Shown piece after piece: positions 24,393 through 36,144 of a stretch of 64,000 bases of DNA (the stretch's first letter is position 1; each line of letters opens with the position of its first letter). This DNA is from Acetobacterales bacterium (lineage in GTDB: Bacteria > Pseudomonadota > Alphaproteobacteria > JBBDQX01). The notes beneath the pieces were generated by a model, which was not told the DNA's origin, did not search any database, and saw nothing but the letters and a program-made list of their open reading frames with translations. Both the position numbers and the translations under genes were made by a program. The DNA lies in the NCBI GenBank assembly GCA_040905765.1, contig JBBDQX010000007.1, positions 184 to 64,183 on the forward strand, in the 5' to 3' direction.

Positions 24393-24439
24393 CGGCAGGC
24401 CGCGGGTCACAGGCGAGCGACTTTCCGCCAACGCGCCGC

Positions 24440-25243
24440 TCACATGTAGCCAGAGGCGCGGAGACGCTCGAAGGCATTCTCCGCTTCGTGGTCCATGGCC
24501 CGGCCGGCGCGCTCCTCCTGCTTCGTCGTCTCCAGTTCGGCGATGATCTCCGCGAGGGTCGCGGCGTCGCTGTCGATCGGATTGGTGATCCCGATCTCGC
24601 CGAGCGATCTGAAACGCTTGCCGTCCCGCGCAAAGTACAGCGGCACCACGGGAATGGCCTCGCGCTGGATGTAGCGCCAGATGTCGATTTCCGTCCAGTG
24701 CAGCAGCGGGTGGATGCGGATGTGGGTGCCGGGCGGGAAATCGGTCTTGTACTGGTCCCAGAACTCGGGCGGCTGGTCGCGGAAGTTCCAGTCGCCCTCG
24801 GCCCCGCGCGGGCTGAAGTAGCGTTCCTTGGCACGCATCGGCTGCTCGTCCCGGCGGATGCCGGCGATGATGCCGTCGAAGCCGTACTTCGCGACCGCCT
24901 GCTTCAGACCTGCCGTCTTGCGCGCCGCGAAGCGGGACGCAGGAGGCAGGCTGGGATCGACCTCCTCGATCGGCGGACAGGGATCCGCGATCAGGTTGAG
25001 CTCCCATTCCTTCACGTAGCGCTCGCGGAAGGCATAGGTCTCCGGGAACTCCGCGCCGGTGTCGAGATGCATCGCCGGGAACGGCAGGCGGCCGAAGAAA
25101 GCCTTCCTGGCGAGCCAGATCATCACGTTCGAATCCTTGCCGATCGACCACAGCATGCCGAGGCGGTCGAACCGGTTGAAGGCTTCGCGGAAGATGAAGA
25201 TGCTCTCGTGCTCGAGGCTATCCAGATGATCCATCGGGTGCAT
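24440..25243 (-). CDS. cysD: sulfate adenylyltransferase subunit 2
   Basis: PAPS-reductase-like fold (LWSIGKDSNVMIWLARKAF). Confidence 0.92.
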   Translation of the reverse strand: MHPMDHLDSLEHESIFIFREAFNRFDRLGMLWSIGKDSNVMIWLARKAFFGRLPFPAMHLDTGAEFPETYAFRERYVKEWELNLIADPCPPIEEVDPSLPPASRFAARKTAGLKQAVAKYGFDGIIAGIRRDEQPMRAKERYFSPRGAEGDWNFRDQPPEFWDQYKTDFPPGTHIRIHPLLHWTEIDIWRYIQREAIPVVPLYFARDGKRFRSLGEIGITNPIDSDAATLAEIIAELETTKQEERAGRAMDHEAENAFERLRASGYM

Positions 25244-25335
25244 CGGAACCGGCGCAGCGCAAGGACCCCATGTCCCGCGCGTGCCCGTGCATAGCGACCC
25301 GGCGCCACGCTGACAAGCCCTGCACGCGGGTCAGT

Positions 25336-26622
25336 TCAGGCGAAGACGTCGAGACCCGAGGGCGAGCGAGCCGGGGGCGCGGAAGTGAGCAGCGACGAAG
25401 AAGCGCCGGCCGGCTGAACCGAAGACAGGTACGGGAAGTCTCCGACAGACGGCGGAGCGAAGGAGCGGATCTGGAAAGGGTCGGATTGTGCCGGCTGGGT
25501 ACGCAGCGGCTCGGTCAGGCCCGGGACAACGAAGCCGAGCGCGAGGCCGGAAAGGATCTTGAACAGCTCGCGCCGCTGATCGGCCTGGCGGATGAGCACC
25601 GCGGCCGCGTCGCGCAGCACGCCCTCGTTGCGGCCGCTCTCGAAAGAGACCTCCCCGAGCTGCTGCTGGATGCCGGATACCATGCCGCGAATCTGCGACA
25701 ACGCCTGCCGGGCCTCGGCGATCGCGGTCCGCGCACCACCGGCATTGGCTGCACTGAGCAGATCCGTGGTCCGCAGGTCGGCCGAGAGCTCTCCCGCGAA
25801 CACCGGCTCCAGCGAAACCGGCACGGAGTCGCCCTCTTCGGTCCGCGTACCGACCTGGACGTCGAACCTCCGGGCGACGAGCGTACCGGCTACATCGAAG
25901 CCCGCATCGTCCGTCGCGGGTTCGATATCCGTGGCCGGATCGAAGTTTTCGTCGACGGTGACGACGATGCCGAAGCCGGTGAAGAAGATGCGGTCCGTGT
26001 CACCGGCTTCGGGCGCGGAGTCCGGTCCTTCCACACGCTCAACACGCCCTGTAGCGGTGTTGGTGAGGGTGAACAGGACGGCCGTCGCATCGTAGGCAAT
26101 GGTGAAGCCGTCACCGGCCGCGAGGTTGCCGGTCGCCGGGTCATCGAACGTTATCGAAGCGATCCCCGCCGGCGCACCGATGTCGGCCCCGATATTCGCG
26201 GCGGAGAAGTCGTTGCTGCCAGCGAGGACATTGATGCCGTCCTCTTCCGTCCTCTCGGCTATGCCGTTGAGACGGTCCAGCACCGAGCGGAAGCGGATGT
26301 CGAGGAGCGCCCGTTCGACATCGGTGGCATCGTCCTCGGCGGCCCGGGCCGCCAGTTCGTCGAGTTCGATCAGGGCCAGGTCGATCCGCTCCAGCGCCGA
26401 GGAAGCATTGGGTAGCACGGTGTTCGCCTGGCGCGCGTTGTCGCCGCCCTGGGCGACCAGCACGCTCTCCGCGCTCAGCCGGTTCTGCAGGAGCCCGCTG
26501 AGCAGATTGAGCCGCGTGTTGGTCGTGAAATAGGGATCGGCTACGACCTGAGGCCGGTTCCGCTCCACCAACGTCTGCGACACGAGCCTCTGATTGAGGC
26601 CCAGAGTGAGGAAATCGGGCAT
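25336..26622 (-). CDS. divergent flagellin-like protein (flagellin N/D1-like and C-like helices, acidic Asp/Thr/Gly-rich middle, about 60-aa C-terminal tail)
   Basis: Segments ALERIDLALIELDELAARAAED...LDRLNGIAERTEEDGINVLAGSNDFSAANIGADIG align to the flagellin D0/D1 consensus (...IDRIAEQTEFNGVKVLAQDNTLTIQVGANDGE). No other flagellar genes lie nearby. Confidence 0.55.
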   Translation of the reverse strand: MPDFLTLGLNQRLVSQTLVERNRPQVVADPYFTTNTRLNLLSGLLQNRLSAESVLVAQGGDNARQANTVLPNASSALERIDLALIELDELAARAAEDDATDVERALLDIRFRSVLDRLNGIAERTEEDGINVLAGSNDFSAANIGADIGAPAGIASITFDDPATGNLAAGDGFTIAYDATAVLFTLTNTATGRVERVEGPDSAPEAGDTDRIFFTGFGIVVTVDENFDPATDIEPATDDAGFDVAGTLVARRFDVQVGTRTEEGDSVPVSLEPVFAGELSADLRTTDLLSAANAGGARTAIAEARQALSQIRGMVSGIQQQLGEVSFESGRNEGVLRDAAAVLIRQADQRRELFKILSGLALGFVVPGLTEPLRTQPAQSDPFQIRSFAPPSVGDFPYLSSVQPAGASSSLLTSAPPARSPSGLDVFA

Positions 26623-26904
26623 GACGACCGTGTCGCCACCCTCGCCATTCGCGGCGGGCGCCTGCGCGGCACACCATCGCGACGCATCCTGCTACCGGCG
26701 TCTATGCGAACGGGATTCCGTCCCTGGAACCCCTCTAGACGGGGCGAATCTCCCTGCTAAAAGCCAAAACACATCGTTTCGCTACGACGCGCGAATGGTG
26801 GGCCGGATTCGCAGGTGCCGCAAAAACAAGGGAAGCTGTCGTGACCGCGACAACTTGACCTTGCGGCCGGATTATATCGGCGCATGGCGGGAAGCCAAGC
26901 GGAT

Positions 26905-27516
26905 TCAGCCGCCGGCGGCTATCCCGAGATCGCGGGTAAAGGCGGCATAGACGTCGGAAACGGCCGCATTCATTGCGCTGACCGTACCGGTCATCGTGCG
27001 GTCGGGCGCCTCACGCTCCACCTCGTACACCTTGATCAGCATCAGCTTGCCGTCGCTTTCGCGGCGCAGGCTGAATTCCATCGTCAAGGCGACGAGCGGA
27101 TTGCCCGGCCTGACGATCTGCTCCATCCGGCGCAGCTTGGCCCCGACGGAGTAGTCCGGATCGGCGCGCTGCTCGGTGGTGACGATCGTTCCGGCGACAT
27201 TTGCGCCGCGGAGATAGCTTACCAGCTGCCCCTGCAGCATCCGGGGCAGCGCTTCGGTCCAGTAATGGTAGTGATACTGCATCAGCCGGTCGGGCGCCTC
27301 GACGCTGGAATACACCAGCGCACGCTCGATCAGGAGACCGTCGGCAAGGAACCTGTCGACCTGCAGGGTACCCTGCAGGACCGGCGCCTGGGGCGAGGAA
27401 CCCTGGAAATCGACGCTGAGACGGTAGAACTGGTCGCGCGGCGCTTCCTGCGGTGCGGCGCAGGAGGCCGCCACCAGCACCAGCGCGAATACGCCCGCAA
27501 GCCGAGCGACGCTCAC
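26905..27516 (-). CDS. ABC-type transport auxiliary lipoprotein (YmbA/PqiC-like, COG3218)
   Basis: Lipobox LVAASC. ATGA-coupled to the mlaD-like gene; typical terminal gene of Mce/Mla-type operons. Confidence 0.75.
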   Translation of the reverse strand: MSVARLAGVFALVLVAASCAAPQEAPRDQFYRLSVDFQGSSPQAPVLQGTLQVDRFLADGLLIERALVYSSVEAPDRLMQYHYHYWTEALPRMLQGQLVSYLRGANVAGTIVTTEQRADPDYSVGAKLRRMEQIVRPGNPLVALTMEFSLRRESDGKLMLIKVYEVEREAPDRTMTGTVSAMNAAVSDVYAAFTRDLGIAAGG

Positions 27517-28526
27517 GGCCGGGTGCTCCGGAGGACCCCGTTCTCTTCATCCGGGGTCGTGCCGCGGAGCAACACGCCGGGATTCTGCCGTACCTGGCGG
27601 CTGAACTCGTACATGTTTCGGCTGGTACCCTCGAGGTTATAGGCGACCAAATCGACATGGCGGGCAAGGCTGTCGAGGACGTAACGCAGATCCTCCACCG
27701 CCTCCGAAACCCCTGCCTCGTTCTTTCCCACCAGATCGTTGACGGAGGAGATGATCCCGCTGAGTTCGCCCCGACTGTCGCGCAATCCCGCGCTGAGGTC
27801 GGCGAAATTCGAAGCGGTCGCCTCGAGATCGGTGAGAAATCCGTCGACCTGCGCCACACGCTCCTCCGACAGGAGCCTGTTCATCCGTCCGGCCGTAGCG
27901 TTCAGGGAGTTCGAGAAGGACTCGAGATCGGTCATCAGCACCGGCGTCGATTTGGCGACGTCGGCGACCACCTGGCGCAGGTTGGCGATGATGTCCACCA
28001 TTGCCGGCTCGCCCGCCGCACCGAATACCTCGACGAACCGGTTCACGTTCTCGAGCAGCGGCTTTATGTTGTTCTGCGACAGATCGAGAACCTCCGTCGC
28101 CACCTCCTCCAGAATCGCGAAGACATCGCCACCCTGAACGCTGGGGATGCGTTCGCCTGCGGGGATCATCTCGCCGCTGGCGCCGCCGCGGATGTTGATG
28201 GTGATGGCCGCCAGGAGGCCGGGGGCGGTCAGGCGCGCGATGCTGTCCTGCGGTATCGGCCAGCCTTCCGAGACCGACATCTCGATCCGGAAGCGGGTGT
28301 GATTCTCCTCGCGCACCGGGCGGATCGCCTCGACCTGCCCGACGGGATAGCCCTCGTACAGCACCTGCGTGCCGGTCTTCACACCACCGACGTTGTCGAA
28401 CAACGTGTAGTAGGACTCCGTACCGCCGGTCCTGCCGGTGAGTACCGCCACCATTCCGACGAGCGCCGCGACCGTGGCCATGACGAACAGCCCGACGACG
28501 ACGTAGTTTAAGCGATGGGTTTTCAT
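27513..28526 (-). CDS. Mce/MlaD family substrate-binding protein
   Basis: N-terminal TM anchor plus MCE domain (YYTLFDNVGGVKTGTQVLYEGYPVGQVEAI) with an extended C-terminal helical region. Confidence 0.85.
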   Translation of the reverse strand: MKTHRLNYVVVGLFVMATVAALVGMVAVLTGRTGGTESYYTLFDNVGGVKTGTQVLYEGYPVGQVEAIRPVREENHTRFRIEMSVSEGWPIPQDSIARLTAPGLLAAITINIRGGASGEMIPAGERIPSVQGGDVFAILEEVATEVLDLSQNNIKPLLENVNRFVEVFGAAGEPAMVDIIANLRQVVADVAKSTPVLMTDLESFSNSLNATAGRMNRLLSEERVAQVDGFLTDLEATASNFADLSAGLRDSRGELSGIISSVNDLVGKNEAGVSEAVEDLRYVLDSLARHVDLVAYNLEGTSRNMYEFSRQVRQNPGVLLRGTTPDEENGVLRSTRP

Positions 28527-29401
28527 GGTGCGTCCGCGGGCAGGTTTTCGCCGGTCAGGCGGGCGAGGTACTCGTCGACATCCAGTGTAACGTGCTCGGC
28601 GCGGCGGTTCAGCAGGTTCTGGACCCGCTCGCTCCGCGAGTTCCGGACCTCGTCGACGCTGCCAACCATGATGATCTCTCCGCGGTCAAGGAAGGTGATC
28701 CGATCGGCGATCTTGAACGCGCTTTCGAGTTCGTGGGTGACGACGACGATGGTGATGCCCAGGGCATCGCGCAGGCGCAGGATCAGGTCGTCGAGCGCCG
28801 AAGAAACCACCGGATCGAGGCCGGCCGAGGGCTCGTCGCAGAACAACAGTCGCGGGTCCATGATGACGGCGCGTGCGAAGGCCGCGCGCTTCAGCATGCC
28901 GCCGGACAGCTCAGACGGTATCAGGTCCTCGAAACCCGCGAGTTCAACCACTTCGAGCTTGAGGCGCATCATCACGCGCATCGTCTGCTCGTCGAGGTCG
29001 GTGTGCTCCCGCAGCGGCAGCATGATGTTTTCCCCGACCGTCAGGGAGCTGAGCAGCGCTCCGCCCTGGAACGCCACGCCCATGCGCTTGCGAATATCGT
29101 AGAGGTCGCGTCCGCTCATCCGGCAGAGATCGCGGCCGAGAAAGTCGATCGAGCCGGAAGTCGGCTGCTCCAGGGCCATCAGATGGCGCAGCAACGTGCT
29201 CTTGCCGGAGCCGCTGCCGCCCATGATCACCATCACCTCGCGGTCGTGGATGTCGAGGTCGATGCCCTTGAGGATCGTGCGCGGCCCGTAGGACTTGACC
29301 AGGTTCCGCACGCGGATCACCACCTCACGGCCATCGGCAGCGCTCGGCGGCGCGCCGTCGATCTGCTTCGGGCCGGGGTGCGTCGCCTCTGTCATGGCCA
29401 T
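28523..29401 (-). CDS. ABC transporter ATP-binding protein, MlaF-like
   Basis: Walker A (GGSGSGKST), signature (LSGGMLKRAAFARA) and Walker B (LLFCDEPSAGLD). Confidence 0.9.
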   Translation of the reverse strand: MAMTEATHPGPKQIDGAPPSAADGREVVIRVRNLVKSYGPRTILKGIDLDIHDREVMVIMGGSGSGKSTLLRHLMALEQPTSGSIDFLGRDLCRMSGRDLYDIRKRMGVAFQGGALLSSLTVGENIMLPLREHTDLDEQTMRVMMRLKLEVVELAGFEDLIPSELSGGMLKRAAFARAVIMDPRLLFCDEPSAGLDPVVSSALDDLILRLRDALGITIVVVTHELESAFKIADRITFLDRGEIIMVGSVDEVRNSRSERVQNLLNRRAEHVTLDVDEYLARLTGENLPADAP

Positions 29402-29403
29402 GC

Positions 29404-30219
29404 CTAGCGGGTGATGGCGAAGGCGAAGATCATGTCGGTGATGACGATCGCGCTGATGCCCTGCACCACCGCCCGCGTCGTCACACGGCCCACCCCCTCG
29501 GCGCCGCCGGAGACCGAGGCGCCGTTGACCACGCCGATCAGAGCGACGAGCGCGGCGAAGATCACGCTCTTGCCGATACCGTGCATCACGTCGTTGATGG
29601 AGAGTGCCTCGACGACCCGGTCGAAGTAGGTCGACATCGACATGCCCAGGTCGGCGCCGATATAGAGCCCGGCGCCGAACAGCGCGACGAGATCGGCATA
29701 AATGGTCAGCGCCGGCAGCATCACCATCATCGCGAACAGCGGCGGCGCGACGAGGAAGCGAACCGGGTTGATGCCCATGACCGTCAGGGCATCGACCTCC
29801 TGATTGATGCTCATCGTGCCGATCCGCGCCGCAAGGGCCGAACCGGACCGGCCGGCGACGAGAATCCCGGTGATCAGCGGCGCGAACTCGCGCGTCACCG
29901 ACAGCGCGACGCCGAGCGTCACCTTCTCCTCCGCCCCGAAGGCGCGCAGCGTGTAGATGCCCTGGATCGCCAGCATCACCCCGATGGTGATGGACAGCAC
30001 GGAGACGATCGGGATCGCCATGACCCCGATTTCCATCATCTGTTCGACGATCGCGGCAAGGCGCACCGGCTGTCGCCTGGCGTGGCCCGTAATCGCCCAG
30101 ACCAGGCTCTCCACCAGCAGCATCGCGGCGAAGCCGATCTCGGCCACGCCCGCGACGGTGCGGCGGCCGATCCGCTCGGCGAGGTCGAGAAAGCCCGCGC
30201 TGCGTGCGCTAGCCGGCAT
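29404..30219 (-). CDS. ABC transporter permease, MlaE-like
   Basis: MlaE family TM core. Start corrected to MPASARSAGFLDLAERIGRR; overlaps the STAS gene stop by 11 nt. Confidence 0.87.
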   Translation of the reverse strand: MPASARSAGFLDLAERIGRRTVAGVAEIGFAAMLLVESLVWAITGHARRQPVRLAAIVEQMMEIGVMAIPIVSVLSITIGVMLAIQGIYTLRAFGAEEKVTLGVALSVTREFAPLITGILVAGRSGSALAARIGTMSINQEVDALTVMGINPVRFLVAPPLFAMMVMLPALTIYADLVALFGAGLYIGADLGMSMSTYFDRVVEALSINDVMHGIGKSVIFAALVALIGVVNGASVSGGAEGVGRVTTRAVVQGISAIVITDMIFAFAITR

Positions 30220-30541
30220 TCGCCAGCGCGTCTTCGACGCTGTCGTGGATGGCGAACACCTGATCGAGGCGCGCCAGCGACAGCACCCGCATCGCCGCCG
30301 GGCTGACGCCGGCGAGGCGGAAATCGATCTTGTTCTTGCGGGCCCCCTGCAGGGCCTCGACGAGGCTGGCGACGCCCGAGGAGTCGATGTACGACACGCC
30401 CCCCATATCGACGAGGACGGCCTTGCCCTTCTTGATCTGGTCGAGCAGCAGGCTGCGCGCCTGCGGCGACGTGGACAGGTCGATGTCGCCCTGCAGCGCA
30501 ACGACCGTGGCCGCGGCCTCCTCCCTCACATCGTGTTTCAT
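30209..30541 (-). CDS. STAS-domain anti-sigma-factor-antagonist-like protein (RsbV/SpoIIAA-like, occupies the MlaB position)
   Basis: 110 aa STAS fold carrying the phosphorylatable motif VSYIDSSGVASLVEAL. Confidence 0.8.
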   Translation of the reverse strand: MKHDVREEAAATVVALQGDIDLSTSPQARSLLLDQIKKGKAVLVDMGGVSYIDSSGVASLVEALQGARKNKIDFRLAGVSPAAMRVLSLARLDQVFAIHDSVEDALANAG

Positions 30542-30562
30542 CGTCCCCTCAGTCAGCCTGTT

Positions 30563-31051
30563 TCAGCAGCCCGTCACGCCGAACCTTTTTGCCATGCGCA
30601 ACAGGTTGCCGTGCCCGGACGGCGGCGGCAAGAAGCCGCTCTCGTCCATTACCTCGTTTATCAGGTGCACGCCGATGCCGCCCGGCCGGACCTCGTCGAG
30701 GGACCGCGGCTTGATGCGGCTGGCGTCCACGGTCGGCGCGAAGTCCCTGAGCAGTACGATCATGCTGTGCCGGTCGCGCAACAGCGCCACCACGATGACA
30801 CCGTCCGGCGCCGACTTGTAGGCGTGCCGGATCACATTCTGGCACGCCTCGTCCACCGCCAGCACGATGTCACAAACATCGTCGGATCCGAAGCCGCAGA
30901 GCTGCGCCGCCGCCGAGACGCCGGCCCGCACCAGCCGAAGCCGGTCGGGGCAGGACGGAACGCGCAATTCCACGAGCAGTTCGGCGTCCCGTTCGCCGAG
31001 CGCCGCCATGACGTCGGAGACGGAGGATTCCAGCGAGGGCGGGCTCGTCAT
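30563..31051 (-). CDS. anti-sigma regulatory factor / serine protein kinase (RsbW/SpoIIAB-like, HATPase_c)
   Basis: N-box (DEACQNVIRHAY) and G-box (RPGGIGVHLI). ATGA overlap with the upstream phosphatase gene. Confidence 0.8.
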   Translation of the reverse strand: MTSPPSLESSVSDVMAALGERDAELLVELRVPSCPDRLRLVRAGVSAAAQLCGFGSDDVCDIVLAVDEACQNVIRHAYKSAPDGVIVVALLRDRHSMIVLLRDFAPTVDASRIKPRSLDEVRPGGIGVHLINEVMDESGFLPPPSGHGNLLRMAKRFGVTGC

Positions 31052-32319
31052 GTTCCGATCGCCAGCAGGGTCACGTCGTCGTGCAGTTCCTCGTTAAAGG
31101 CGCGGATGCGCGCAGTGATCGACCGCACACGCTCGGGAAGCGGCAGGTAGCGGTACGACCGCACCAGCGTCTTGAAGCCCTCCTGCCCGAGCATCTGCTC
31201 GTGCTCCGAGGCCTCCGTCACACCGTCGGTGAAGACATACAGCGTCCCGCCCCGCAGTGCGATCTCACGATCCGGGAACTCGAGTCCCGGCACGATGCCC
31301 AGGGGCGGCTGCTCGGCCTCGAACTCGAGGAAGGTGCCGTCGGGCAGATGCAGCAAGGGCGGTTCGTGGCCGGCATTCGCCAGCGTCACCCTGCCCTCCG
31401 CGAGGTCCATCAGGCCTACAGCCATGGTGACGAACTTGCCGCGCGTCGCCGTCTCGCACACCTCTTCGTTGACATGCGCGAGGAGGGCGCCGGGATCGGG
31501 CTCGCGCTTGCCGAGCGCACGGAACACGCTGGCCGTCTTCGCCATCAGCAGCGCGGCGTCCATGCCCTTGCCGGAGACGTCGCCGAGTGCGAACAGCACC
31601 CTGCCGTCCGGAAGCGTCATATAATCGAAGAAGTCGCCGGACACTCGCCGTGCCGGCAGGTTGACGCCGAAAATGGGCAGACCGTCGCGGTCGGACTTGG
31701 GCAGCAGTGCACGCTGGATTTCTGCGGCAAGCTCGAGTTCGCGCTGAAGCCGTTCCTGGTCGACCAGCGCACGAGCCTGCTGGGCGTTGATGAAGGCCAT
31801 TGCGGCGGTCGAGGCGAGCACCCGAAGCACGCTCTGGTCGCGGCTGTCGAACAGGCCCTCGCCTCCGACCTTGTTGATCAGCTCGATGGCCCCGATGCAG
31901 CGGTCCTTGATGCTGAGCGGGGCGCACAGGATAGAGCGCGTGGTGAATCCGGTCTTCTCGTCGACCTGGGCCCCGAACGCGGGATCCTCGCGGACATCGC
32001 GCACGATCTCGCAGCTGTTGTCGCGGATGCTGCGGCCGACGATCCCCTGATCGATCGGCAGGCGCAGGCCGGAGATGTCGACCGGCCCGATGCAGACGGT
32101 GCAGACCACGTCCTGCCCGCCGTCCGGCGTTTCCTCCAGCATGAACAGGGAGGAGGCCTCCGCCGACAGGATCTCGGTGATCCGCTCCAGGCCGCGCCGG
32201 ATGGTCTGCTCGACGTCGAGCGTGTGCCCGAACTCCTCCGTCAGCATGACGAGAAGCTCAAGATACTCGGTGAACTCTGCGGCGGCGCCGGCCGTCGCGG
32301 GCGATCGCTCGTCTGGCAT
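31048..32319 (-). CDS. GAF domain-containing PP2C-type serine phosphatase (RsbU/SpoIIE-like)
   Basis: N-terminal GAF followed by PP2C motifs (SGDFFDY, ALGDVSGKGMDAALLM, GHEPPLL, VFTDGVTE). Confidence 0.85.
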   Translation of the reverse strand: MPDERSPATAGAAAEFTEYLELLVMLTEEFGHTLDVEQTIRRGLERITEILSAEASSLFMLEETPDGGQDVVCTVCIGPVDISGLRLPIDQGIVGRSIRDNSCEIVRDVREDPAFGAQVDEKTGFTTRSILCAPLSIKDRCIGAIELINKVGGEGLFDSRDQSVLRVLASTAAMAFINAQQARALVDQERLQRELELAAEIQRALLPKSDRDGLPIFGVNLPARRVSGDFFDYMTLPDGRVLFALGDVSGKGMDAALLMAKTASVFRALGKREPDPGALLAHVNEEVCETATRGKFVTMAVGLMDLAEGRVTLANAGHEPPLLHLPDGTFLEFEAEQPPLGIVPGLEFPDREIALRGGTLYVFTDGVTEASEHEQMLGQEGFKTLVRSYRYLPLPERVRSITARIRAFNEELHDDVTLLAIGT

Positions 32320-32371
32320 CGCGCTTACTATGCCCCCGACGGCGGCCTGAGGGAACGGCGACCGCCCCGGA

Positions 32372-32719
32372 CTACGGCGTCTCAAGTTCGCCGTTGTCCT
32401 CGACTACATGGTCGACCATGTCGGTCAGCATGCTGCGGACATGCGGATCGGCAACCAGGTAGAACACCTGCCGTCCCTGGCGCTCCGCCTGCAGCAGACG
32501 CGCGGCACGCAGCAGCCGCAGATGGTGGCTGACCAGCGACGGCGACAATCCGAGCCGGGCCGCCATGTCCCCCACCGAGACCTTGCGGTTGAGACAGGTG
32601 AGGATGATGCCGAGACGCGTCGGATCGCTCATCAGGCGGAACATCTCCGCCAGTTCTATTACGGCGTCGTCGCCGACGCGCGGGTCGTTGCCACCCTCCA
32701 CCGGGGCGTTCTTCAGCAT
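32372..32719 (-). CDS. ArsR/SmtB family metal-sensing transcriptional regulator
   Basis: wHTH (LSDPTRLGIILTCL...VSHHLRLLR) with an intact alpha-5 metal site (DPHVRSMLTDMVDHVVE, matching DxHx10HxxE). Confidence 0.85.
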   Translation of the reverse strand: MLKNAPVEGGNDPRVGDDAVIELAEMFRLMSDPTRLGIILTCLNRKVSVGDMAARLGLSPSLVSHHLRLLRAARLLQAERQGRQVFYLVADPHVRSMLTDMVDHVVEDNGELETP

Positions 32720-32859
32720 CGTCGAAAACCGAGTGTTCGGGCGCGGTCCAGCAACCCCGCCAACTTAGAACCATTCTAGGGTCTGCCCGGGACGGTACGC
32801 AACCGAATAGCCCGGCCGACAACACATTGCCGCGACAGGAGAGCGATTTCATGCGTACT

Positions 32860-32995
32860 TGAAAATAACATCAATGCCGAATAAATTGTGAATCTATGAA
32901 AACTGAAAAATACAAAGTTCATAATTTATACTTGAATATTTGTTGAATCGTAGAGCTGTACATTTGAACAGGAGTTCAGATGTGGAAGTGCGGGA
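32860..32995. promoter_or_regulatory. AT-rich divergent promoter/operator region between the ArsR-led operon and the metal ABC importer
   Basis: About 130 bp at roughly 28% GC in a roughly 68% GC genome. Contains repeated TTGAA/TGAA half-sites and the imperfect palindrome TTCATAATTTATACTTGAA. SD GGGAGA lies 7 nt before the SBP ATG. Confidence 0.4.
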
Positions 32996-33002
32996 GATAT
33001 CG

Positions 33003-33968
33003 ATGTTGACCATTCTGCGCCGGACCCTGCTGGCAATGGCCGCCTGCCTGGCGCTGGCCGTGCTGCCGCTGCGTGCGGAGGCGGCCTACAGGATCGTCGC
33101 CACCATCGGCATGGTAAGCGACATCGCGTCGAACGTGGCCGGCGACCGGGCCGAGGTCGAGGCGCTGATGGGTTCCGGGGTGGACCCCCACCTCTACACG
33201 ACCACCCGCTCCGACATGGCGCGGTTGCTGCGCGCCGACGTGGTCTTCTACAACGGCCTGCTGCTCGAAGGGAAAATGAGCGACGCCCTGATCCGGGTCG
33301 CCACCCGGGGCAAGCCCGTGTTCGCGGTGACAGAACTGCTGGACGAGAAGTTCCTGCTCGCGCCGCCGGAATTTCAGGGCCACCACGACCCGCACGTCTG
33401 GATGGATCCGTCGGCGTGGATCCGGGCCGTGGATGTGGTGCGTGACCGCCTTTCCACCTACGACCCGCCCGGGAAGGACGACTATGCGCGCAATGCCGAG
33501 GCCTACAAGGCGACGCTGCGGGAACTGGATGTCTATGCCGAACGCGTGCTCGGTACGGTGCCGGAATCGTCGCGGGTGCTCGTCACAGCGCATGACGCCT
33601 TCAACTATTTCGGTCGGCGCTACGGCTACGAGGTCGTCGGCATCCAGGGCATGAGCACCGAATCGGAGGCCGGCGTGAAGCAGATCGGGGCGCTGCTCGA
33701 CATGCTGGTCGACCGGAAGATCGGCGCCGTGTTCGTCGAGACGACGGTGTCGGAGCGCAATATCCGCGCCCTTATCGAGGGGGCGGCAGCGCGCGGCCAC
33801 GAGGTGACGGTCGGCGGTTCGCTGTTTTCCGACGCCATGGGCGAACCCGGCACCTACGAGGGCACCTACCTCGGCATGATGGACCACAACGTCACCGCCA
33901 TCGCCCGCGCCCTCGGCGGCAATGCGCCGGCAGGCGGCAGGCGCGGCGAACTGGCGCGGGGGAACTGA
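33003..33968 (+). CDS. metal ABC transporter substrate-binding protein (cluster A-I, TroA/SitA/MntC/ZnuA family)
   Basis: Signal peptide plus the TroA-fold metal-binding His/Asp region (HDPHVWMDP). Confidence 0.9.
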   Translation: MLTILRRTLLAMAACLALAVLPLRAEAAYRIVATIGMVSDIASNVAGDRAEVEALMGSGVDPHLYTTTRSDMARLLRADVVFYNGLLLEGKMSDALIRVATRGKPVFAVTELLDEKFLLAPPEFQGHHDPHVWMDPSAWIRAVDVVRDRLSTYDPPGKDDYARNAEAYKATLRELDVYAERVLGTVPESSRVLVTAHDAFNYFGRRYGYEVVGIQGMSTESEAGVKQIGALLDMLVDRKIGAVFVETTVSERNIRALIEGAAARGHEVTVGGSLFSDAMGEPGTYEGTYLGMMDHNVTAIARALGGNAPAGGRRGELARGN

Positions 33969-33970
33969 GG

Positions 33971-34744
33971 ATGGAGTCCCGTACCGGCTCCGGAGCGCCT
34001 CTGCGCGTCAGCGACCTGACGATTGCCTACCGCGACAAGCCGGTGCTGTGGGAGGTGGACTACACGGCGCCGGCAAGCGGCATGATCGCGGTGGTGGGGC
34101 CCAATGGCGCCGGCAAATCGACGCTGATCAAGGCCTGCCTCGGCCTCGTACCGGCAGCGGCCGGCAGCATCGAGGTGTTCGGGCAGCCGGCCAGGCGGCA
34201 GCGGCGGCTCATCGGCTACCTGCCGCAGCGCGAGTCGGTGGACTGGGATTTCCCCGCGTCGGCGCTGGATGTCGTGACGATGGGCCTGTACGGCCGGATC
34301 GGCTGGCTGCGCCCGGTGCGCAGGCGCCACCGCGAGGAGGCCCTGACCTATCTGGAGAAGGTCAACATGGCCGATTTCGCCGACAGGCAGATCGGTCAGC
34401 TGTCGGGCGGCCAGCAGCAACGCGTGTTCCTCGCGCGCGCGCTGGCGCAGGATGCCCGGCTGTATTTCATGGACGAGCCCTTCGCCGGCGTGGACGCGGC
34501 CACCGAGCGAGCCATCGTGGCCGTGCTGGAGGAGATGGACGCGCAGGGGCGGACGGTGATCTGCGTGCACCACGACCTGGATACGGTACCGAAGTACTTC
34601 CACCATGTGCTGCTGCTGAACAACCGCGTCGTCGCGGCCGGCAGCGTCGGCGAAGCGTTTACCCGCGAGAACCTGCAGAAGACTTACGGCGGAAGGCTAG
34701 CGCTGCTGGAACAGGCCGGCGAGGCGCTGGCACGCAGCGCATGA
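33971..34744 (+). CDS. metal ABC transporter ATP-binding protein
   Basis: Walker A (GPNGAGKST), signature (LSGGQQQRV) and Walker B (LYFMDEPFAGVD). Confidence 0.9.
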   Translation: MESRTGSGAPLRVSDLTIAYRDKPVLWEVDYTAPASGMIAVVGPNGAGKSTLIKACLGLVPAAAGSIEVFGQPARRQRRLIGYLPQRESVDWDFPASALDVVTMGLYGRIGWLRPVRRRHREEALTYLEKVNMADFADRQIGQLSGGQQQRVFLARALAQDARLYFMDEPFAGVDAATERAIVAVLEEMDAQGRTVICVHHDLDTVPKYFHHVLLLNNRVVAAGSVGEAFTRENLQKTYGGRLALLEQAGEALARSA

Positions 34745-36144
34745 ACACCGCCACCTCCCTCGCCACCGTTTCCTACGACTGGCCGCCGCTGCACGAGGTG
34801 CTGGCGGTGCTCACTCTCAATGCCGGGTACAACGCGGCCAGCGTGGTGGTCGGTACGATGCTGCTGGGCATAGCCGCCGGGATGGTCGGCACCTTCGCGC
34901 TGCTGCGCAAGCGGGCGCTGATGAGCGACGCGCTGAGCCATGCGACGCTGCCCGGCATCTGCATGGCCTTCATCGTCGCCGCGGCCATAGGTACCACTGG
35001 CCGAAGCCTGCCGGTGCTGATCGCCGGCGCGGCGGTGAGCGGCATCGTCGGCGTGCTTTTCGCCCAGTTCATCGTCGCCAATTCGCGTCTTCGGCAGGAT
35101 GTCGCGATCGGCGTGGTGCTGAGCGTATTCTTCGGCCTGGGGGTCGTGCTGCTGAGCTACATCCAGACGATGCAGACCGGATCTCAGGGCGGGCTGCATC
35201 ATTTCATCCTGGGTCAGACGGCGGCGCTGAAGCGCAGCGACGCCCTGTTGATGGGCGGCATCGCGCTGCTCGCGCTGCTTGCCACGACGGCTCTGTTCAA
35301 GGAGTTCCGGCTGATCTGCTTCGATGAGGATTTCGCGCGCGTGCAGGACTGGCCGGTCTCGCGGATCGACCTGCTGATGATGACCCTCGTGGTGGTCGTG
35401 ACGGTCGTCGGCCTGCAGGCGGTCGGCCTGCTGCTGATTGTCGCCTTCGTCATCATCCCGCCGACCGCTGCTCGCTTCTGGACCGACCGGCTCGGCGCCA
35501 TGACCCTGCTCGCCGCGGCATTCGGCGGCCTGAGTGGCTATCTGGGTTCCAGTGCCTCCGCCCTGTTCCCGGACCTGCCGACCGGAGCGGTCATCGTGCT
35601 GGTCTCGGGCGCGATCTTCGTCGTCAGCATGTTCCTCGCACCGGGGCGGGGGGTCGTCGCCGATGTCCTCCGGCGCGTCCGCATGCGGACGCGGATGGCG
35701 CAGGAGCATGTGCTGCGCAGCTATTTCGAACTGTTCGAGACAGGCCACTACCGGGACTGGAGGACGTCGCGGGTACCGCGCGAGGCGCTGCTGCTGTACC
35801 GGGACTGGCACCGGCGCGGGCTCGGTCTGCTCCTGCGGCTGATGGCGCTGCGCGGTCTCCTGACGCTGCATGGGGATGAGGTCGCGCTGACCGACAAGGG
35901 GCGGGAGGAGGCGTTCCGGATCACCCGCACCCACCGGCTCTGGGAACAGTACCTGACGACCCACGCCGACCTCGCCCCGGCACAGGTGCACGGACCGGCC
36001 GAACTGGTCGAGCATGTGCTGACGCCACAGATGATCGCCGACCTTGAGGAGCGCCTCGCCGTGGTGGGACGCCGCCCCCGAGCGGACGCCATGCCGCAGA
36101 GCGCGCATCCCCTTCCCGACGCCGGCGAGGGAGCGACGCCATGA
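34741..36144 (+). CDS. ABC-3 family metal permease fused to a C-terminal DtxR/MntR-like repressor domain
   Basis: About 290-aa TM core (ABC-3) followed by about 170 aa with a wHTH-like segment (LRSYFELFETG...LTDKGREEAFRITRTHRLWEQYL) and a DtxR-like dimerisation/metal domain. ATGA overlap with the ATPase gene. Confidence 0.85.
   Translation: MNTATSLATVSYDWPPLHEVLAVLTLNAGYNAASVVVGTMLLGIAAGMVGTFALLRKRALMSDALSHATLPGICMAFIVAAAIGTTGRSLPVLIAGAAVSGIVGVLFAQFIVANSRLRQDVAIGVVLSVFFGLGVVLLSYIQTMQTGSQGGLHHFILGQTAALKRSDALLMGGIALLALLATTALFKEFRLICFDEDFARVQDWPVSRIDLLMMTLVVVVTVVGLQAVGLLLIVAFVIIPPTAARFWTDRLGAMTLLAAAFGGLSGYLGSSASALFPDLPTGAVIVLVSGAIFVVSMFLAPGRGVVADVLRRVRMRTRMAQEHVLRSYFELFETGHYRDWRTSRVPREALLLYRDWHRRGLGLLLRLMALRGLLTLHGDEVALTDKGREEAFRITRTHRLWEQYLTTHADLAPAQVHGPAELVEHVLTPQMIADLEERLAVVGRRPRADAMPQSAHPLPDAGEGATP

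What the first reader, a model, noticed from the sequence alone, without database searches (positions are those of the whole stretch)
26905..32385. Partner-switching phospho-module (GAF-PP2C / RsbW-like kinase / RsbV-like STAS) translationally coupled to an MlaFED-lipoprotein lipid-transport operon
Seven minus-strand genes with ATGA or overlapping junctions at 31048/31051, 30209/30219, 29401/29404, 28523/28526 and 27513/27516 form one operon.

The genes in order are:
- GAF-PP2C serine phosphatase (RsbU/SpoIIE-like)
- HATPase_c serine kinase / anti-sigma factor (RsbW-like)
- STAS antagonist
- MlaE permease
- MlaF ATPase
- Mce/MlaD protein
- auxiliary lipoprotein

Canonical Mla systems carry an unphosphorylated STAS subunit (MlaB) that binds MlaF. 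Here the STAS gene sits in the MlaB position but is a bona fide RsbV-type antagonist with its own kinase and phosphatase, and no sigma factor is encoded nearby. The output of the switch is therefore probably the ABC transporter itself, through phospho-dependent binding of STAS to MlaF or of the kinase to STAS. To my knowledge such direct post-translational gating of an Mla/Mce phospholipid transporter by a partner-switching cascade has not been characterised. The GAF domain implies a small-molecule input.
Basis: partly seen in the sequence, partly recalled or inferred. Interest (0 to 1): 0.85.

Follow-up and report, generated by a model that had tools for sequence, protein, structure and literature searches.

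The report
Phospho-switch wired to a lipid transporter
A seven-gene operon found in many Rhodospirillales-type bacteria joins a serine kinase/phosphatase switch and its small STAS target protein to an envelope-spanning lipid pump, which suggests (untested) that these bacteria turn the pump on and off by phosphorylating a pump subunit, an idea raised for this transporter class but never demonstrated.

Summary
Seven tightly packed minus-strand genes (26905-32319) encode GAF-PP2C phosphatase, RsbW-like Ser kinase, a STAS protein with a DSSG phospho-site, MlaE-like permease, MlaF-like ATPase, a 337-aa MCE protein and a PqiC-like lipoprotein.

It is not a one-off. In a scan of one genome per species, 58 of 63 loci with enough DNA carry all seven genes in the same order, with different flanking genes. 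In 58 of 81 loci the phosphatase and kinase are one fused protein.

The transporter half is not canonical Mla. It is the Mpc / PA3211-14 type ("chimeric Mla-Pqi"), as in Brucella MpcEFDA, where a STAS domain is fused to the permease. Most of the closest relatives of this MlaE outside the cassette are such STAS-MlaE fusions. Others have a free STAS and no kinase, or no STAS.

No sigma factor was detected in the window, and none is conserved near related loci.

Best reading (inferred, about 0.55): reversible phosphorylation of STAS Ser54 gates its docking on the transporter.

The literature searches found no description of this arrangement. Kolich et al. 2020 name MlaB phosphoregulation as an open question.

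Verdict: new variant of known kinds, high interest, mechanism untested.

The parts
31048..32319 (-). GAF-PP2C (SpoIIE-family) serine phosphatase, 423 aa from ATG 32319
   Evidence: Pfam SpoIIE 2.9e-46 (residues 259-443 of the 445-aa reading) and GAF/GAF_2. Metal-binding motifs D[VI]SG[HK]G, TDG and DDxT are present in 78-80 of 81 orthologs. The start is supported by the 423-aa ortholog in L001.
30563..31051 (-). RsbW/SpoIIAB-type GHKL serine kinase, 162 aa
   Evidence: Pfam HATPase_c_2 1.5e-23. Best PDB sequence match is B. subtilis RsbW, 6m36_A, 3e-13. The N-box DEACQN and the G2 box PGGLG are conserved. The G1 box reads D-F-A instead of D-x-G. The start overlaps the PP2C stop (ATGA).
30209..30541 (-). 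Stand-alone STAS protein, 110 aa; predicted phospho-site Ser54 (codon 30380-30382) in YIDSSG
   Evidence: Pfam STAS 2.5e-21. NCBIfam ant_ant_sig scores 79 bits (cut-off 53); mlaB_1 scores 23.7 bits (cut-off 90). The xDSSGx motif is present in 84 of 86 orthologs. Ser54 aligns with Ser59 of TM1442 in the printed alignment. AlphaFold model pLDDT is 93.4, with Ser54 as the first residue of helix 2. Top fold matches are TM1442, RsbV and SpoIIAA.
29404..30219 (-). MlaE/MpcE-like ABC permease, 271 aa, without the N-terminal STAS domain seen in its closest non-cassette relatives
   Evidence: Pfam MlaE 6.4e-68. In the representative search, 102 of the 150 nearest 50%-identity clusters are 340 aa or longer, and 9 of 10 tested carry an N-terminal STAS match, 8 of them above Pfam's cut-off. 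The ATG at 30219 overlaps the STAS stop by 11 nt.
28523..29401 (-). MlaF/MpcF-like ABC ATPase, 292 aa, with the LSGGM signature and a C-terminal extension
   Evidence: NCBIfam MlaF 6.9e-59 (below the equivalog cut-off). Best PDB matches are A. baumannii, P. aeruginosa and E. coli MlaF and mycobacterial MceG. LSGGM is present in 73 of 73 orthologs. A C-terminal Y-x3-L motif is present in 70 of 73 and aligns to E. coli Tyr261/Leu265.
27513..28526 (-). MCE protein (MpcD / PA3213-like), 337 aa: N-terminal TM anchor, one MCE domain, long C-terminal region
   Evidence: Pfam MlaD 1.2e-13 at residues 36-113 only. Orthologs carry weak Helical_needle hits. PDB sequence matches are P. aeruginosa MlaD, Mce1 subunits and 13hr_I, the 312-aa MCE chain of the entries that also hold the lipoprotein.
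26905..27516 (-). PqiC-like (ABC_trans_aux) outer-membrane lipoprotein, 203 aa, GTG start; probable lipobox VAAS-C
   Evidence: Pfam ABC_trans_aux 1.1e-11. Best PDB matches are 13hr/13hs/13hq (ABC-type transport auxiliary lipoprotein) and 2IQI XCC0632. XCC0632 is named as a PA3214/PqiC homolog in PMC13631591.
26833..26856 (-). Terminator-like hairpin with a T-run about 50 nt after the lipoprotein stop; a candidate 3' end of the operon
   Evidence: Weak evidence: the total number of terminator-like sites in the region does not exceed shuffled controls.

Best explanation
The locus encodes an Mpc / PA3211-14 type trans-envelope lipid ABC transporter: MlaE-like permease, MlaF-like ATPase, MCE needle protein and PqiC-like outer-membrane lipoprotein. 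In sister systems the cytoplasmic STAS regulatory module is fused to the permease, and in E. coli it is the separate subunit MlaB. Here it is a free 110-aa protein under the control of a dedicated writer/eraser pair.

Proposed mechanism (all steps inferred):
- The RsbW-like kinase phosphorylates STAS on Ser54, the residue equivalent to MlaB Thr52 and SpoIIAA Ser58.
- Phosphorylation prevents STAS from docking on the MlaF nucleotide-binding domain, so the pump is off.
- A ligand sensed by the GAF domain activates the PP2C phosphatase, which restores unphosphorylated STAS.
- Unphosphorylated STAS binds and activates or stabilises the ATPase, so the pump is on.

Shown by sequence: the parts, their catalytic and phospho-site motifs, the conserved linkage, and the STAS-permease fusions in relatives. 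Inferred: phosphorylation itself, STAS-MlaF binding, the polarity of the effect, the lipid substrate and the GAF ligand.
For: 1. Conserved linkage. 58 of 63 species-level loci with enough DNA have all seven genes collinear. Estimated median gaps for the five junctions downstream of the kinase are 1-11 nt. Flanks differ: ArsR/ZnuABC, a mer operon, bactofilin.

2. Rosetta-stone fusions. 102 of the 150 nearest 50%-cluster relatives of this MlaE are 340 aa or longer, and 9 of 10 tested carry an N-terminal STAS match (8 above Pfam's cut-off). L094 shows [STAS-MlaE]-ABC-MlaD-ABC_trans_aux with no kinase. Brucella MpcE has the same fusion, and MpcEFDA co-purify as a complex (PMC12436622).

3. A series of states in the same transporter family: no STAS (L098), free STAS without a kinase (L096), fused STAS, and kinase-linked. 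The kinase-linked form includes a Nitrospirota locus (L097) whose MlaE branches apart from the Rhodospirillales cassette in a rough NJ tree.

4. Phospho-site selection. xDSSGx is present in 84 of 86 cassette STAS proteins. By a crude motif count, only about half of the kinase-less fused STAS domains keep Ser/Thr at that position.

5. Precedent in E. coli. MlaB Thr52 lies at the centre of the MlaF interface, and the phosphomimetic T52E weakens MlaF binding (PMC7367683). The cassette MlaF keeps the LSGGM signature and a C-terminal Y-x3-L motif aligned to the Tyr261/Leu265 residues that insert between MlaF and MlaB.

6. Fused enzymes. Phosphatase and kinase lie in one ORF in 58 of 81 loci. This resembles SypE, whose STAS partner SypA is the downstream output (PMC10120452).

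7. No sigma factor was detected in the window, and only 4 of 85 loci have any within 10 kb.
Against: - There is no direct evidence of phosphorylation or of STAS-MlaF binding.
- The cassette STAS is sequence- and structure-wise a classical anti-sigma antagonist. Its profile scores TM1442 at 85 bits, against a maximum of 60 and a median of 20 bits for the fused transporter STAS domains that scored at all (57 of 104 sequences searched), and 24 bits for E. coli MlaB. The model has the fifth strand and last helix that MlaB lacks, and MlaB is not among the top 50 fold matches. It may therefore have been recruited from a sigma-type module rather than split off the permease.
- The Mpc-type pump can exist without any STAS (L098), so STAS is not obligatory.
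- An MlaF C-terminal extension also occurs in Veillonella, which has no MlaB, so that feature is not diagnostic.
- The kinase G1 box is D-F-A rather than D-x-G in the Rhodospirillales clade.
- L045 keeps GAF-PP2C-kinase plus STAS but has no transporter genes next to it.
- A sigma factor elsewhere in the genome cannot be excluded. The sigma screen used six E. coli queries and could miss divergent ECF sigmas.
Confidence: 0.55

Rival explanations
1. The kinase, not STAS, is the element that touches the transporter. As RsbW holds SigB, the GHKL kinase would bind and inhibit MlaF or MlaE. Dephosphorylated STAS would then pull the kinase off (classical partner-switch polarity with the pump in place of sigma).
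For: The parts list matches a canonical RsbU/W/V triad, and the STAS is of the RsbV type. The kinase-STAS-MlaE-MlaF core persists even where the PP2C is missing (L069, L083).
Against: In 58 of 81 loci the kinase is the C-terminal domain of a roughly 580-610-aa GAF-PP2C protein, an architecture typical of writer/eraser enzymes acting on STAS, as in SypE. The fusions and kinase-less relatives show that it is the STAS domain that is physically tied to this transporter family. No kinase-transporter fusion was seen among the 86 sources examined.
Confidence: 0.12
2. The three regulatory genes form an ordinary partner switch whose real target lies elsewhere: a sigma factor or another enzyme encoded outside the window. 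Co-transcription with the transporter would then only ensure co-expression, for example as part of an envelope-stress regulon.
For: The STAS and kinase are closest to bona fide anti-sigma modules. L045 retains the module without adjacent transporter genes. Whole genomes could not be searched. Alphaproteobacterial partner switches with no adjacent sigma gene are on record, for example the Rhodobacter capsulatus system (title and abstract of PMC3999984, listed; paper not read).
Against: Strict collinearity with overlapping or near-abutting genes holds across kinase identities of 42-69%, with different flanks. No sigma gene is conserved within 10 kb. The STAS gene occupies exactly the position of the permease-fused STAS domain of sister systems.
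Confidence: 0.2
3. The adjacency is accidental or merely inherited synteny, with no functional link between the switch and the pump.
For: Most of the examined loci belong to one broad clade (Rhodospirillales and relatives), so shared ancestry inflates the counts.
Against: Flanking genes are not conserved while the seven-gene block is. A Nitrospirota locus has the same front module on an MlaE that branches elsewhere in the tree. Gene overlaps are maintained.
Confidence: 0.03

Closest known systems
Brucella abortus MpcEFDA ('chimeric Mla-Pqi' system; PMC12436622)
   Same: Four transporter genes in the same order: permease, ATPase, MCE, lipoprotein. The MCE protein is about 331-337 aa with a long C-terminal helical region. 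The outer-membrane lipoprotein is PqiC-like. There is no MlaC. A STAS module lies immediately N-terminal/5' of the permease. The host is an alphaproteobacterium.
   Different: In Mpc the STAS domain is fused to MpcE, and the paper describes only four genes in the operon, with no kinase or phosphatase. Here STAS is a separate RsbV-type protein preceded by a GAF-PP2C and an RsbW-like kinase. Direct sequence comparison with the Brucella proteins was not possible with the collections available.
Pseudomonas aeruginosa PA3211-PA3214 and Xanthomonas XCC0632 operons (PMC13631591)
   Same: A tripartite ABC + MCE needle + octameric PqiC-like lipoprotein system. The window's lipoprotein and MCE protein hit the corresponding PDB entries (13hr/13hs/13hq, 2IQI).
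   Different: The paper's text never mentions a STAS domain, kinase or phosphatase for that four-gene operon. Identity is low (E-values 8e-5 to 4e-8).
E. coli MlaFEDB with the STAS subunit MlaB (PMC7367683)
   Same: MlaE/MlaF-type ABC core with the LSGGM signature and an MlaF C-terminal extension. A STAS protein acts as a cytoplasmic accessory whose Ser/Thr at the start of helix 2 (MlaB Thr52, here Ser54) lies at the partner interface. Phosphoregulation was proposed as an open question.
   Different: There is no MlaC in the window and the MCE protein is long rather than short. mlaB is the last gene of the E. coli operon. MlaB is a minimal STAS lacking the fifth strand and last helix, whereas this STAS has both. 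It scores 23.7 bits against the MlaB model (cut-off 90). No kinase is known for MlaB.
Vibrio fischeri SypE/SypA (PMC10120452)
   Same: A bifunctional Ser kinase + PP2C phosphatase controls a single-domain STAS protein. That STAS protein, not the kinase, is the downstream output and acts on a non-sigma target. The module is encoded inside the locus of the machinery it controls.
   Different: SypE domain order is kinase-REC-PP2C with phosphorelay input. Here the order is GAF-PP2C-kinase (split in this window). SypA's target is unknown and the locus makes a polysaccharide, not a lipid transporter.
Bacillus RsbU/RsbV/RsbW-SigB and SpoIIE/SpoIIAA/SpoIIAB-SigF partner switches
   Same: PP2C phosphatase, GHKL Ser kinase and a DSSG-type STAS antagonist. 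These give the best sequence and fold matches for kinase and STAS.
   Different: No sigma factor gene is in the operon, the window, or conserved nearby. Gene order is phosphatase-kinase-STAS. Phosphatase and kinase are usually fused.
Anabaena HenR / All4160 / Alr3423 module (PMC13555669)
   Same: [quoted passage not shown] Phosphorylation is inhibitory.
   Different: The target is a STAS-containing glycosyltransferase, not an ABC transporter, and the abstract does not describe the genes as a compact cassette.
Mycobacterium tuberculosis Rv1364c (own knowledge, not checked here)
   Same: A single polypeptide combines a sensor domain, PP2C phosphatase, RsbW-like kinase and STAS. This is a precedent for phosphatase-kinase fusion.
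   Different: It is linked to SigF regulation and has no transporter association.

Membership tests
Partner-switching module (RsbU/RsbW/RsbV type) | Single-domain STAS antagonist with a phosphorylatable Ser in a DSSG-like motif at the start of helix 2 | tested here: met
   ant_ant_sig scores 79 bits against a cut-off of 53. xDSSGx is present in 84 of 86 orthologs. Ser54 aligns to TM1442 Ser59 and is the first residue of helix 54-69 in a pLDDT-93 model.
Partner-switching module (RsbU/RsbW/RsbV type) | GHKL serine kinase with N-box, G1 and G2 boxes | tested here: inconclusive
   HATPase_c_2 1.5e-23; best PDB match RsbW. The N-box E-x3-N and the G2 box PGGLG are conserved. The G1 box is D-F-A instead of D-x-G in this clade, but D-S-G in the Nitrospirota version. 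Catalytic activity was not tested.
Partner-switching module (RsbU/RsbW/RsbV type) | PP2C/SpoIIE phosphatase with intact metal-binding motifs | tested here: met
   SpoIIE 2.9e-46. The motifs GDVSGKG, TDGVTE and HDDVT are present here and in 78-80 of 81 orthologs.
Partner-switching module (RsbU/RsbW/RsbV type) | A sigma factor as the alternative partner of the kinase, usually co-encoded | tested here: not met
   phmmer with E. coli RpoD, RpoE, RpoH, RpoN, FliA and FecI found none in the 64-kb window, and a sigma gene in only 4 of 85 loci within 10 kb. A distant sigma gene cannot be excluded.
Partner-switching module (RsbU/RsbW/RsbV type) | Actual phosphorylation of STAS and mutually exclusive binding of partners | not testable with these tools
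   Needs Phos-tag analysis, mass spectrometry and binding assays.
Canonical Mla system (MlaFEDCB + MlaA) | MlaE permease and MlaF ATPase with the LSGGM signature | tested here: met
   Pfam MlaE 6.4e-68. TIGR00056 scores 209.6 bits, just under its 212.2 cut-off. MlaF PRK11831 scores 199 bits, below the 441-bit equivalog cut-off. LSGGM is present.
Canonical Mla system (MlaFEDCB + MlaA) | Short MlaD (about 180 aa) plus the periplasmic shuttle MlaC | tested here: not met
   The MCE protein is 337 aa and its MCE domain covers only residues 36-113. phmmer with E. coli MlaC found no MlaC homolog in the window.
Canonical Mla system (MlaFEDCB + MlaA) | MlaB: a minimal STAS without the fifth strand and last helix, matching NF033618 | tested here: not met
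   mlaB_1 scores 23.7 bits against a cut-off of 90. The model has strand 97-99 and helix 102-109. MlaB is not among the top 50 fold matches.
Canonical Mla system (MlaFEDCB + MlaA) | MlaA outer-membrane lipoprotein | not tested
   No MlaA query sequence was available. The lipoprotein in the operon is of the ABC_trans_aux / PqiC type instead.
Mpc / PA3211-14 type tripartite MCE ABC system | Gene order permease - ATPase - MCE - lipoprotein | tested here: met
   The same order occurs in L094, L096 and L098 and in mpcEFDA.
Mpc / PA3211-14 type tripartite MCE ABC system | Single-MCE protein of about 310-340 aa with a C-terminal helical needle | tested here: inconclusive
   The length (337 aa) and domain position fit. 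Orthologs show weak Helical_needle hits. PDB matches include the 312-aa MCE chain 13hr_I and Mce1 subunits. The needle structure was not modelled here.
Mpc / PA3211-14 type tripartite MCE ABC system | PqiC-like (ABC_trans_aux) outer-membrane lipoprotein | tested here: met
   PF03886 1.1e-11. Best PDB hits are 13hr/13hs/13hq and 2IQI. The N-terminus ...LVAASC fits a lipobox.
Mpc / PA3211-14 type tripartite MCE ABC system | STAS domain fused to the permease N-terminus (as described for MpcE) | tested here: not met
   The permease is 271 aa with no STAS. STAS is a separate gene overlapping its start by 11 nt in another frame. No in-frame STAS-MlaE fusion occurs in any of the 86 cassette sources.
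SypE/SypA-type module (bifunctional kinase/phosphatase with STAS as the output) | Kinase and PP2C in one polypeptide acting on a single-domain STAS | tested here: inconclusive
   They are fused in 58 of 81 related loci (Pfam-verified in L045 and L077). They are split in this window and in L001. The domain order and input domain differ from SypE.
SypE/SypA-type module (bifunctional kinase/phosphatase with STAS as the output) | Epistasis showing that STAS acts downstream of the kinase/phosphatase | not testable with these tools
   Requires genetics.

The most novel reading that the evidence does not exclude
A dedicated Ser kinase/phosphatase, often a single GAF-PP2C-GHKL protein, reversibly phosphorylates the STAS subunit of an envelope-spanning MCE lipid ABC transporter. 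This would make transport itself, rather than transcription, the output of a partner-switch. It would be the first natural case of phospho-gating of an Mla/MCE-family transporter, and direct support for the MlaB-Thr52 phosphoregulation hypothesis of Kolich et al. 2020.
Probability: 0.5. Interest if true: 0.85.

Novelty: new variant of a known kind. Interest (0 to 1): 0.75.

Why it matters
How bacteria regulate lipid traffic between their two membranes after translation is largely unknown. The MlaFB structure paper (PMC7367683) proposed STAS phosphorylation as a possible control but noted there is no experimental evidence for it. The Brucella Mpc paper (PMC12436622) describes a STAS-bearing pump and, in the passages read, no regulator for it.

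This cassette supplies the missing parts (kinase, phosphatase with a ligand-sensing GAF domain, and a DSSG STAS) hard-wired to such a pump. It occurs in cultured strains: Terasakiella pusilla DSM 6293, Paramagnetospirillum caucaseum SO-1, P. kuznetsovii LBB-42 and Dongia sedimenti R-7. The hypothesis is therefore directly testable.

It would also extend partner-switching logic to an ABC transporter as the output. In addition, it would correct the database names seen here for this family, where kinase and STAS clusters are called 'sigma-B regulation protein RsbU' or 'anti-sigma B factor antagonist' (1358 STAS clusters at 90% identity match with E <= 1e-5; names from the best 120 rows).

Tried and rejected
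- **Canonical Mla identity: rejected.** The MCE protein is long, there is no MlaC, the lipoprotein is PqiC-like, and the STAS fails the MlaB model.
- **The 365-aa TTG ORF 29404-30501 as a natural STAS-less long MlaE or a hidden fusion: rejected.** Its N-terminal 94 residues are read from another frame across the STAS gene, and the L001 and L002 orthologs are 271 aa.
- **The phosphatase/kinase split as a sequencing frameshift: rejected.** The independent assembly L001 (69% kinase identity) has the same 4-nt overlap, and 23 loci are split.
- **Annotating the whole window through the look-up of encoding contigs with the window's kinase: failed.** It returned only a 1.1-kb Logan contig. Sigma factors were screened by phmmer with E. 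coli queries instead.
- **Promoter and terminator scan: little information.** Terminator-like sites are at the chance level. Only the hairpin after the last gene is positionally sensible.
- **The MlaF C-terminal extension as proof of STAS binding: downgraded.** Veillonella MlaF has an extension without MlaB. The single STAS-less relative lacks the hydrophobic motif, but that is n=1.
- **'The cassette STAS descends from the permease-fused STAS': not supported by sequence.** The cassette profile scores TM1442 at 85 bits but fused STAS domains at no more than 60 bits, and about half do not score at all.
- **Complex modelling of STAS with MlaF or the kinase: not attempted.** The structure tool takes single natural chains only.
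- **Recurrent downstream APS-kinase gene (14 of 85 loci) as a hint to a sulfolipid substrate: left as a note only.**

Full report
**1. What is in the window**

The minus strand between 26905 and 32385 carries seven consecutive ORFs. Pfam and NCBIfam assign them as follows:
- GAF + SpoIIE/PP2C phosphatase
- HATPase_c_2 kinase (nearest named models: RsbW, SpoIIAB)
- STAS protein (anti-sigma antagonist superfamily, 79 bits; MlaB model only 23.7 bits against a cut-off of 90)
- MlaE permease
- MlaF-like ABC ATPase
- 337-aa MlaD/MCE protein
- ABC_trans_aux lipoprotein

Junctions read from the sequence:
- PP2C/kinase: ATGA overlap
- kinase/STAS: 21-nt spacer with GAGGGG
- STAS/MlaE: 11-nt overlap
- MlaF/MlaD: ATGA overlap
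- MlaD/lipoprotein: GTGA overlap

The phosphatase most likely starts at ATG 32319, because the closest ortholog is called at 423 aa. A terminator-like hairpin lies about 50 nt after the last gene, but such sites are not enriched over shuffled controls. Upstream on the same strand, 52 nt away, sits an ArsR/SmtB regulator divergent from a ZnuA-type ABC operon. Downstream are a flagellin-like gene and cysD/cysNC.

The window matches a 64,212-bp contig named 'MAG: Acetobacterales bacterium'.

**2. Is the arrangement conserved?**

Kinase homologs at 50-77% identity are numerous (509 clusters with E <= 1e-5). Three neighbourhoods with Pfam tables show the same seven genes in the same order. Their flanks are unrelated: ArsR/ZnuABC, a mer operon, and bactofilin/TPR.

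A scan of one genome per species with a kinase alignment returned at least 569 confirmed relatives, and I examined the best 80. They are mostly Rhodospirillales MAGs. They also include cultured Paramagnetospirillum caucaseum SO-1, P. kuznetsovii LBB-42, Terasakiella pusilla DSM 6293 and Dongia sedimenti R-7.

Of 63 loci with enough flanking DNA, 58 have all seven genes collinear. In the 17 truncated loci the genes present keep the expected order; L037 lacks the PP2C despite 4 kb of upstream DNA. Estimated median gaps for the five junctions downstream of the kinase are 1-11 nt.

The real exceptions:
- L045: GAF-PP2C-kinase and STAS, then an APS kinase gene, with no transporter genes
- L042: only the ATPase follows STAS
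- L056: no lipoprotein detected
- L069 and L083: no PP2C; a PAS-GGDEF gene lies upstream in L069

In 58 of 81 loci the phosphatase and kinase lie in one stop-free ORF. This was verified by Pfam for L045 (580 aa) and for T. pusilla L077. The split form in this window is shared with L001, so it is real.

**3. Are the parts functional-looking?**

- STAS: xDSSGx is present in 84 of 86 orthologs. Ser54 aligns with Ser59 of TM1442, which sits in that protein's DSAG motif. By my own recollection, not checked here, that serine is the TM1442 phospho-site.
- STAS model: pLDDT 93.4. Ser54 is the first residue of helix 2. The model has the fifth strand and C-terminal helix typical of SpoIIAA/RsbV. Its best fold matches are TM1442, RsbV (in complex with RsbW) and SpoIIAA. 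MlaB is not in the top 50.
- PP2C: metal-binding motifs are intact in 78-80 of 81 orthologs.
- Kinase: it keeps the N-box (E-x3-N) and the G2 box, but its G1 box reads D-F-A in this clade. The Nitrospirota version reads D-S-G.

**4. What kind of transporter is it?**

It is not canonical Mla:
- The MCE protein is 337 aa, with the MCE domain at residues 36-113.
- No MlaC homolog was found in the window.
- The lipoprotein is PqiC-like. Its best PDB hits are 13hr/13hs/13hq and 2IQI XCC0632.

This matches the tripartite PA3211-PA3214 system of P. aeruginosa (PMC13631591). It also matches the Brucella abortus MpcEFDA 'chimeric Mla-Pqi' system (PMC12436622). In that system:
- MpcE is an MlaE homolog with an extra N-terminal STAS domain, described as homologous to MlaB.
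- MpcD is 331 aa with a helical needle.
- MpcA is PqiC-like.
- The four proteins co-purify.
- Mutants are deoxycholate-sensitive and have altered vesicle lipids.

**5. The link between STAS and this transporter family**

I searched 1.84 billion cluster representatives with the window's MlaE. After the roughly 270-aa orthologs, 102 of the best 150 hits are 340 aa or longer, with the MlaE match starting around residue 100-190. Nine of ten scanned carry an N-terminal STAS match, eight of them above Pfam's cut-off.

Neighbourhoods of relatives show a series of states:

| Locus | Arrangement |
|---|---|
| L098 | MlaE-ABC-MlaD-lipoprotein, no STAS |
| L096 | free STAS (site 'MDT'), no kinase, then the four transporter genes |
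| L094 | [STAS-MlaE]-ABC-MlaD-lipoprotein |
| L097 (Nitrospirota) | GAF-PP2C, kinase, STAS (YIDSSG), MlaE, ABC |

In a rough NJ tree without support values, the L097 MlaE branches inside the fused clade, away from the Rhodospirillales cassette. This hints at more than one origin of the association.

The STAS gene of the cassette therefore occupies the position of the permease-fused STAS of sister systems.

One caveat: the cassette STAS profile scores TM1442 at 85 bits. Fused STAS domains score at most 60 bits (median 20 among the 57 of 104 sequences that scored at all), and E. coli MlaB scores 24 bits. The cassette STAS may therefore have been recruited from a classical switch rather than split from the permease.

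**6. Sigma factors**

I ran phmmer with E. coli RpoD, RpoE, RpoH, RpoN, FliA and FecI against all ORFs of 70 aa or more. It found none in the 64-kb window. Only 4 of 85 related loci have a sigma gene within 10 kb: three ECF sigmas and one rpoD. Divergent ECF sigmas could be missed, and the rest of each genome is unseen.

**7. Mechanism**

In E. coli, MlaB binds the helical subdomain of MlaF through its helices, with Thr52 at the centre of the interface. A T52E mutant binds MlaF poorly, and MlaB is needed for MlaF to associate with the complex. The authors state that phosphoregulation of MlaB is possible but undemonstrated (PMC7367683).

The cassette MlaF keeps the Mla/TGD-type LSGGM signature (73 of 73 orthologs). 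It also keeps a C-terminal Y-x3-L motif (70 of 73) aligned with Tyr261/Leu265. In E. coli these residues insert between MlaF and MlaB. This feature is only suggestive, because Veillonella MlaF has an extension without MlaB.

The usual fusion of phosphatase and kinase resembles SypE, whose STAS partner SypA is the downstream effector (PMC10120452). A STAS-bearing glycosyltransferase in Anabaena is likewise inhibited by phosphorylation (PMC13555669).

I therefore favour this model: kinase-phosphorylated STAS is off the pump. GAF-stimulated dephosphorylation returns STAS to MlaF and activates transport. Every step after 'the genes are linked' is inference. Confidence is about 0.55.

The rivals are:
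- the kinase as the transporter-binding element (0.12)
- a remote sigma factor or other target (0.20)
- meaningless synteny (0.03)

**8. Novelty**

Six full-text searches combined RsbW/RsbV, partner-switching, STAS, PP2C and kinase terms with MlaE/MlaF/MlaD/MCE terms. They found no paper describing this arrangement. In the 20 listed papers, RsbW and RsbV never occur together with the Mla terms. The STAS-only-protein review does not mention Mla.

Public annotations call these proteins 'ATP-binding protein', 'sigma-B regulation protein RsbU' or 'anti-sigma B factor antagonist'.

The components and the logic are known kinds: partner-switch-like modules with non-sigma outputs, and STAS subunits of Mla/Mpc pumps. 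The combination is new as far as these searches show. I class it as a new variant of a known kind, with high interest because it makes an explicitly stated open question testable in cultured strains.

Noticed in passing
window 25336-26622 (-): A 428-aa protein with only a Flagellin_N match (residues 47-137, 8e-8) and no C-terminal flagellin domain hit. It lies between the cassette and cysD. The same neighbour occurs in L001 and L010.
   Followed up: partly
window 22512-25243 (-); L002, L009, L016, L023, L026, L045, L071 and others: cysD and a cysN/APS-kinase fusion lie downstream. An APS-kinase gene lies on the same strand downstream of the cassette in 14 of 85 loci, often within 0-130 nt. In L045 it directly follows STAS where the transporter genes are absent. 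Whether this is synteny or a functional hint (sulfated lipid?) is unknown.
   Followed up: partly
window 32372-32719 (-) and 32940-36144 (+): An ArsR/SmtB metalloregulator ends 52 nt before the phosphatase ATG and is divergent from a ZnuA/TroA-type metal ABC operon. In the syntenic L001 locus, one ABC-3 permease carries a Fe_dep_repr_C (DtxR-like) domain. No promoter-like site was found between ArsR and the phosphatase, so read-through from ArsR is possible in this genome.
   Followed up: no
L006-L082 (58 of 81 loci), e.g. L045 8669-10411 and L077 8600-10430: GAF-PP2C and the RsbW-like kinase are a single ORF of roughly 580-610 aa in most relatives. The window and L001 have the split form with an ATGA overlap.
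   Followed up: yes
L069 4760-6899; L083 8730-10417: These are cassette variants without the PP2C. A PAS-GGDEF gene precedes the kinase in L069, and the kinase ORF there has about 190 extra N-terminal residues with no Pfam hit. Unrelated genes precede the kinase in L083.
   Followed up: partly
L098 10124-13794: The STAS-less relative of the transporter is followed by a PLD-type (two PLDc_2 domains, cardiolipin-synthase-like) gene and an AsmA/YhdP-like gene. This is a lipid-homeostasis neighbourhood.
   Followed up: no
window 30563-31051 (kinase residues 103-105) and orthologs: The G1 box of the kinase is D-F-A (58 of 86; D-Y-A in 7) instead of the usual D-x-G. The Nitrospirota homolog (L097) has D-S-G. 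The effect on ATP binding is unknown.
   Followed up: partly
window 29404-30501 (-) and many other ORFs in 24000-36000: Long spurious ORFs overlap real genes in other frames, as is typical of DNA with 65-70% G+C. An example is the 365-aa TTG ORF that extends MlaE across the STAS gene.
   Followed up: yes
L006-L085 record titles: Many cassette-bearing MAGs carry marine or groundwater-style isolate labels (such as BS150m, SI037, ETNP2, Arabian10, NC_groundwater). A few are labelled Marinimicrobia, Spirochaetales, Myxococcota, Solirubrobacterales or Gammaproteobacteria, which may reflect mis-binning or horizontal transfer.
   Followed up: no
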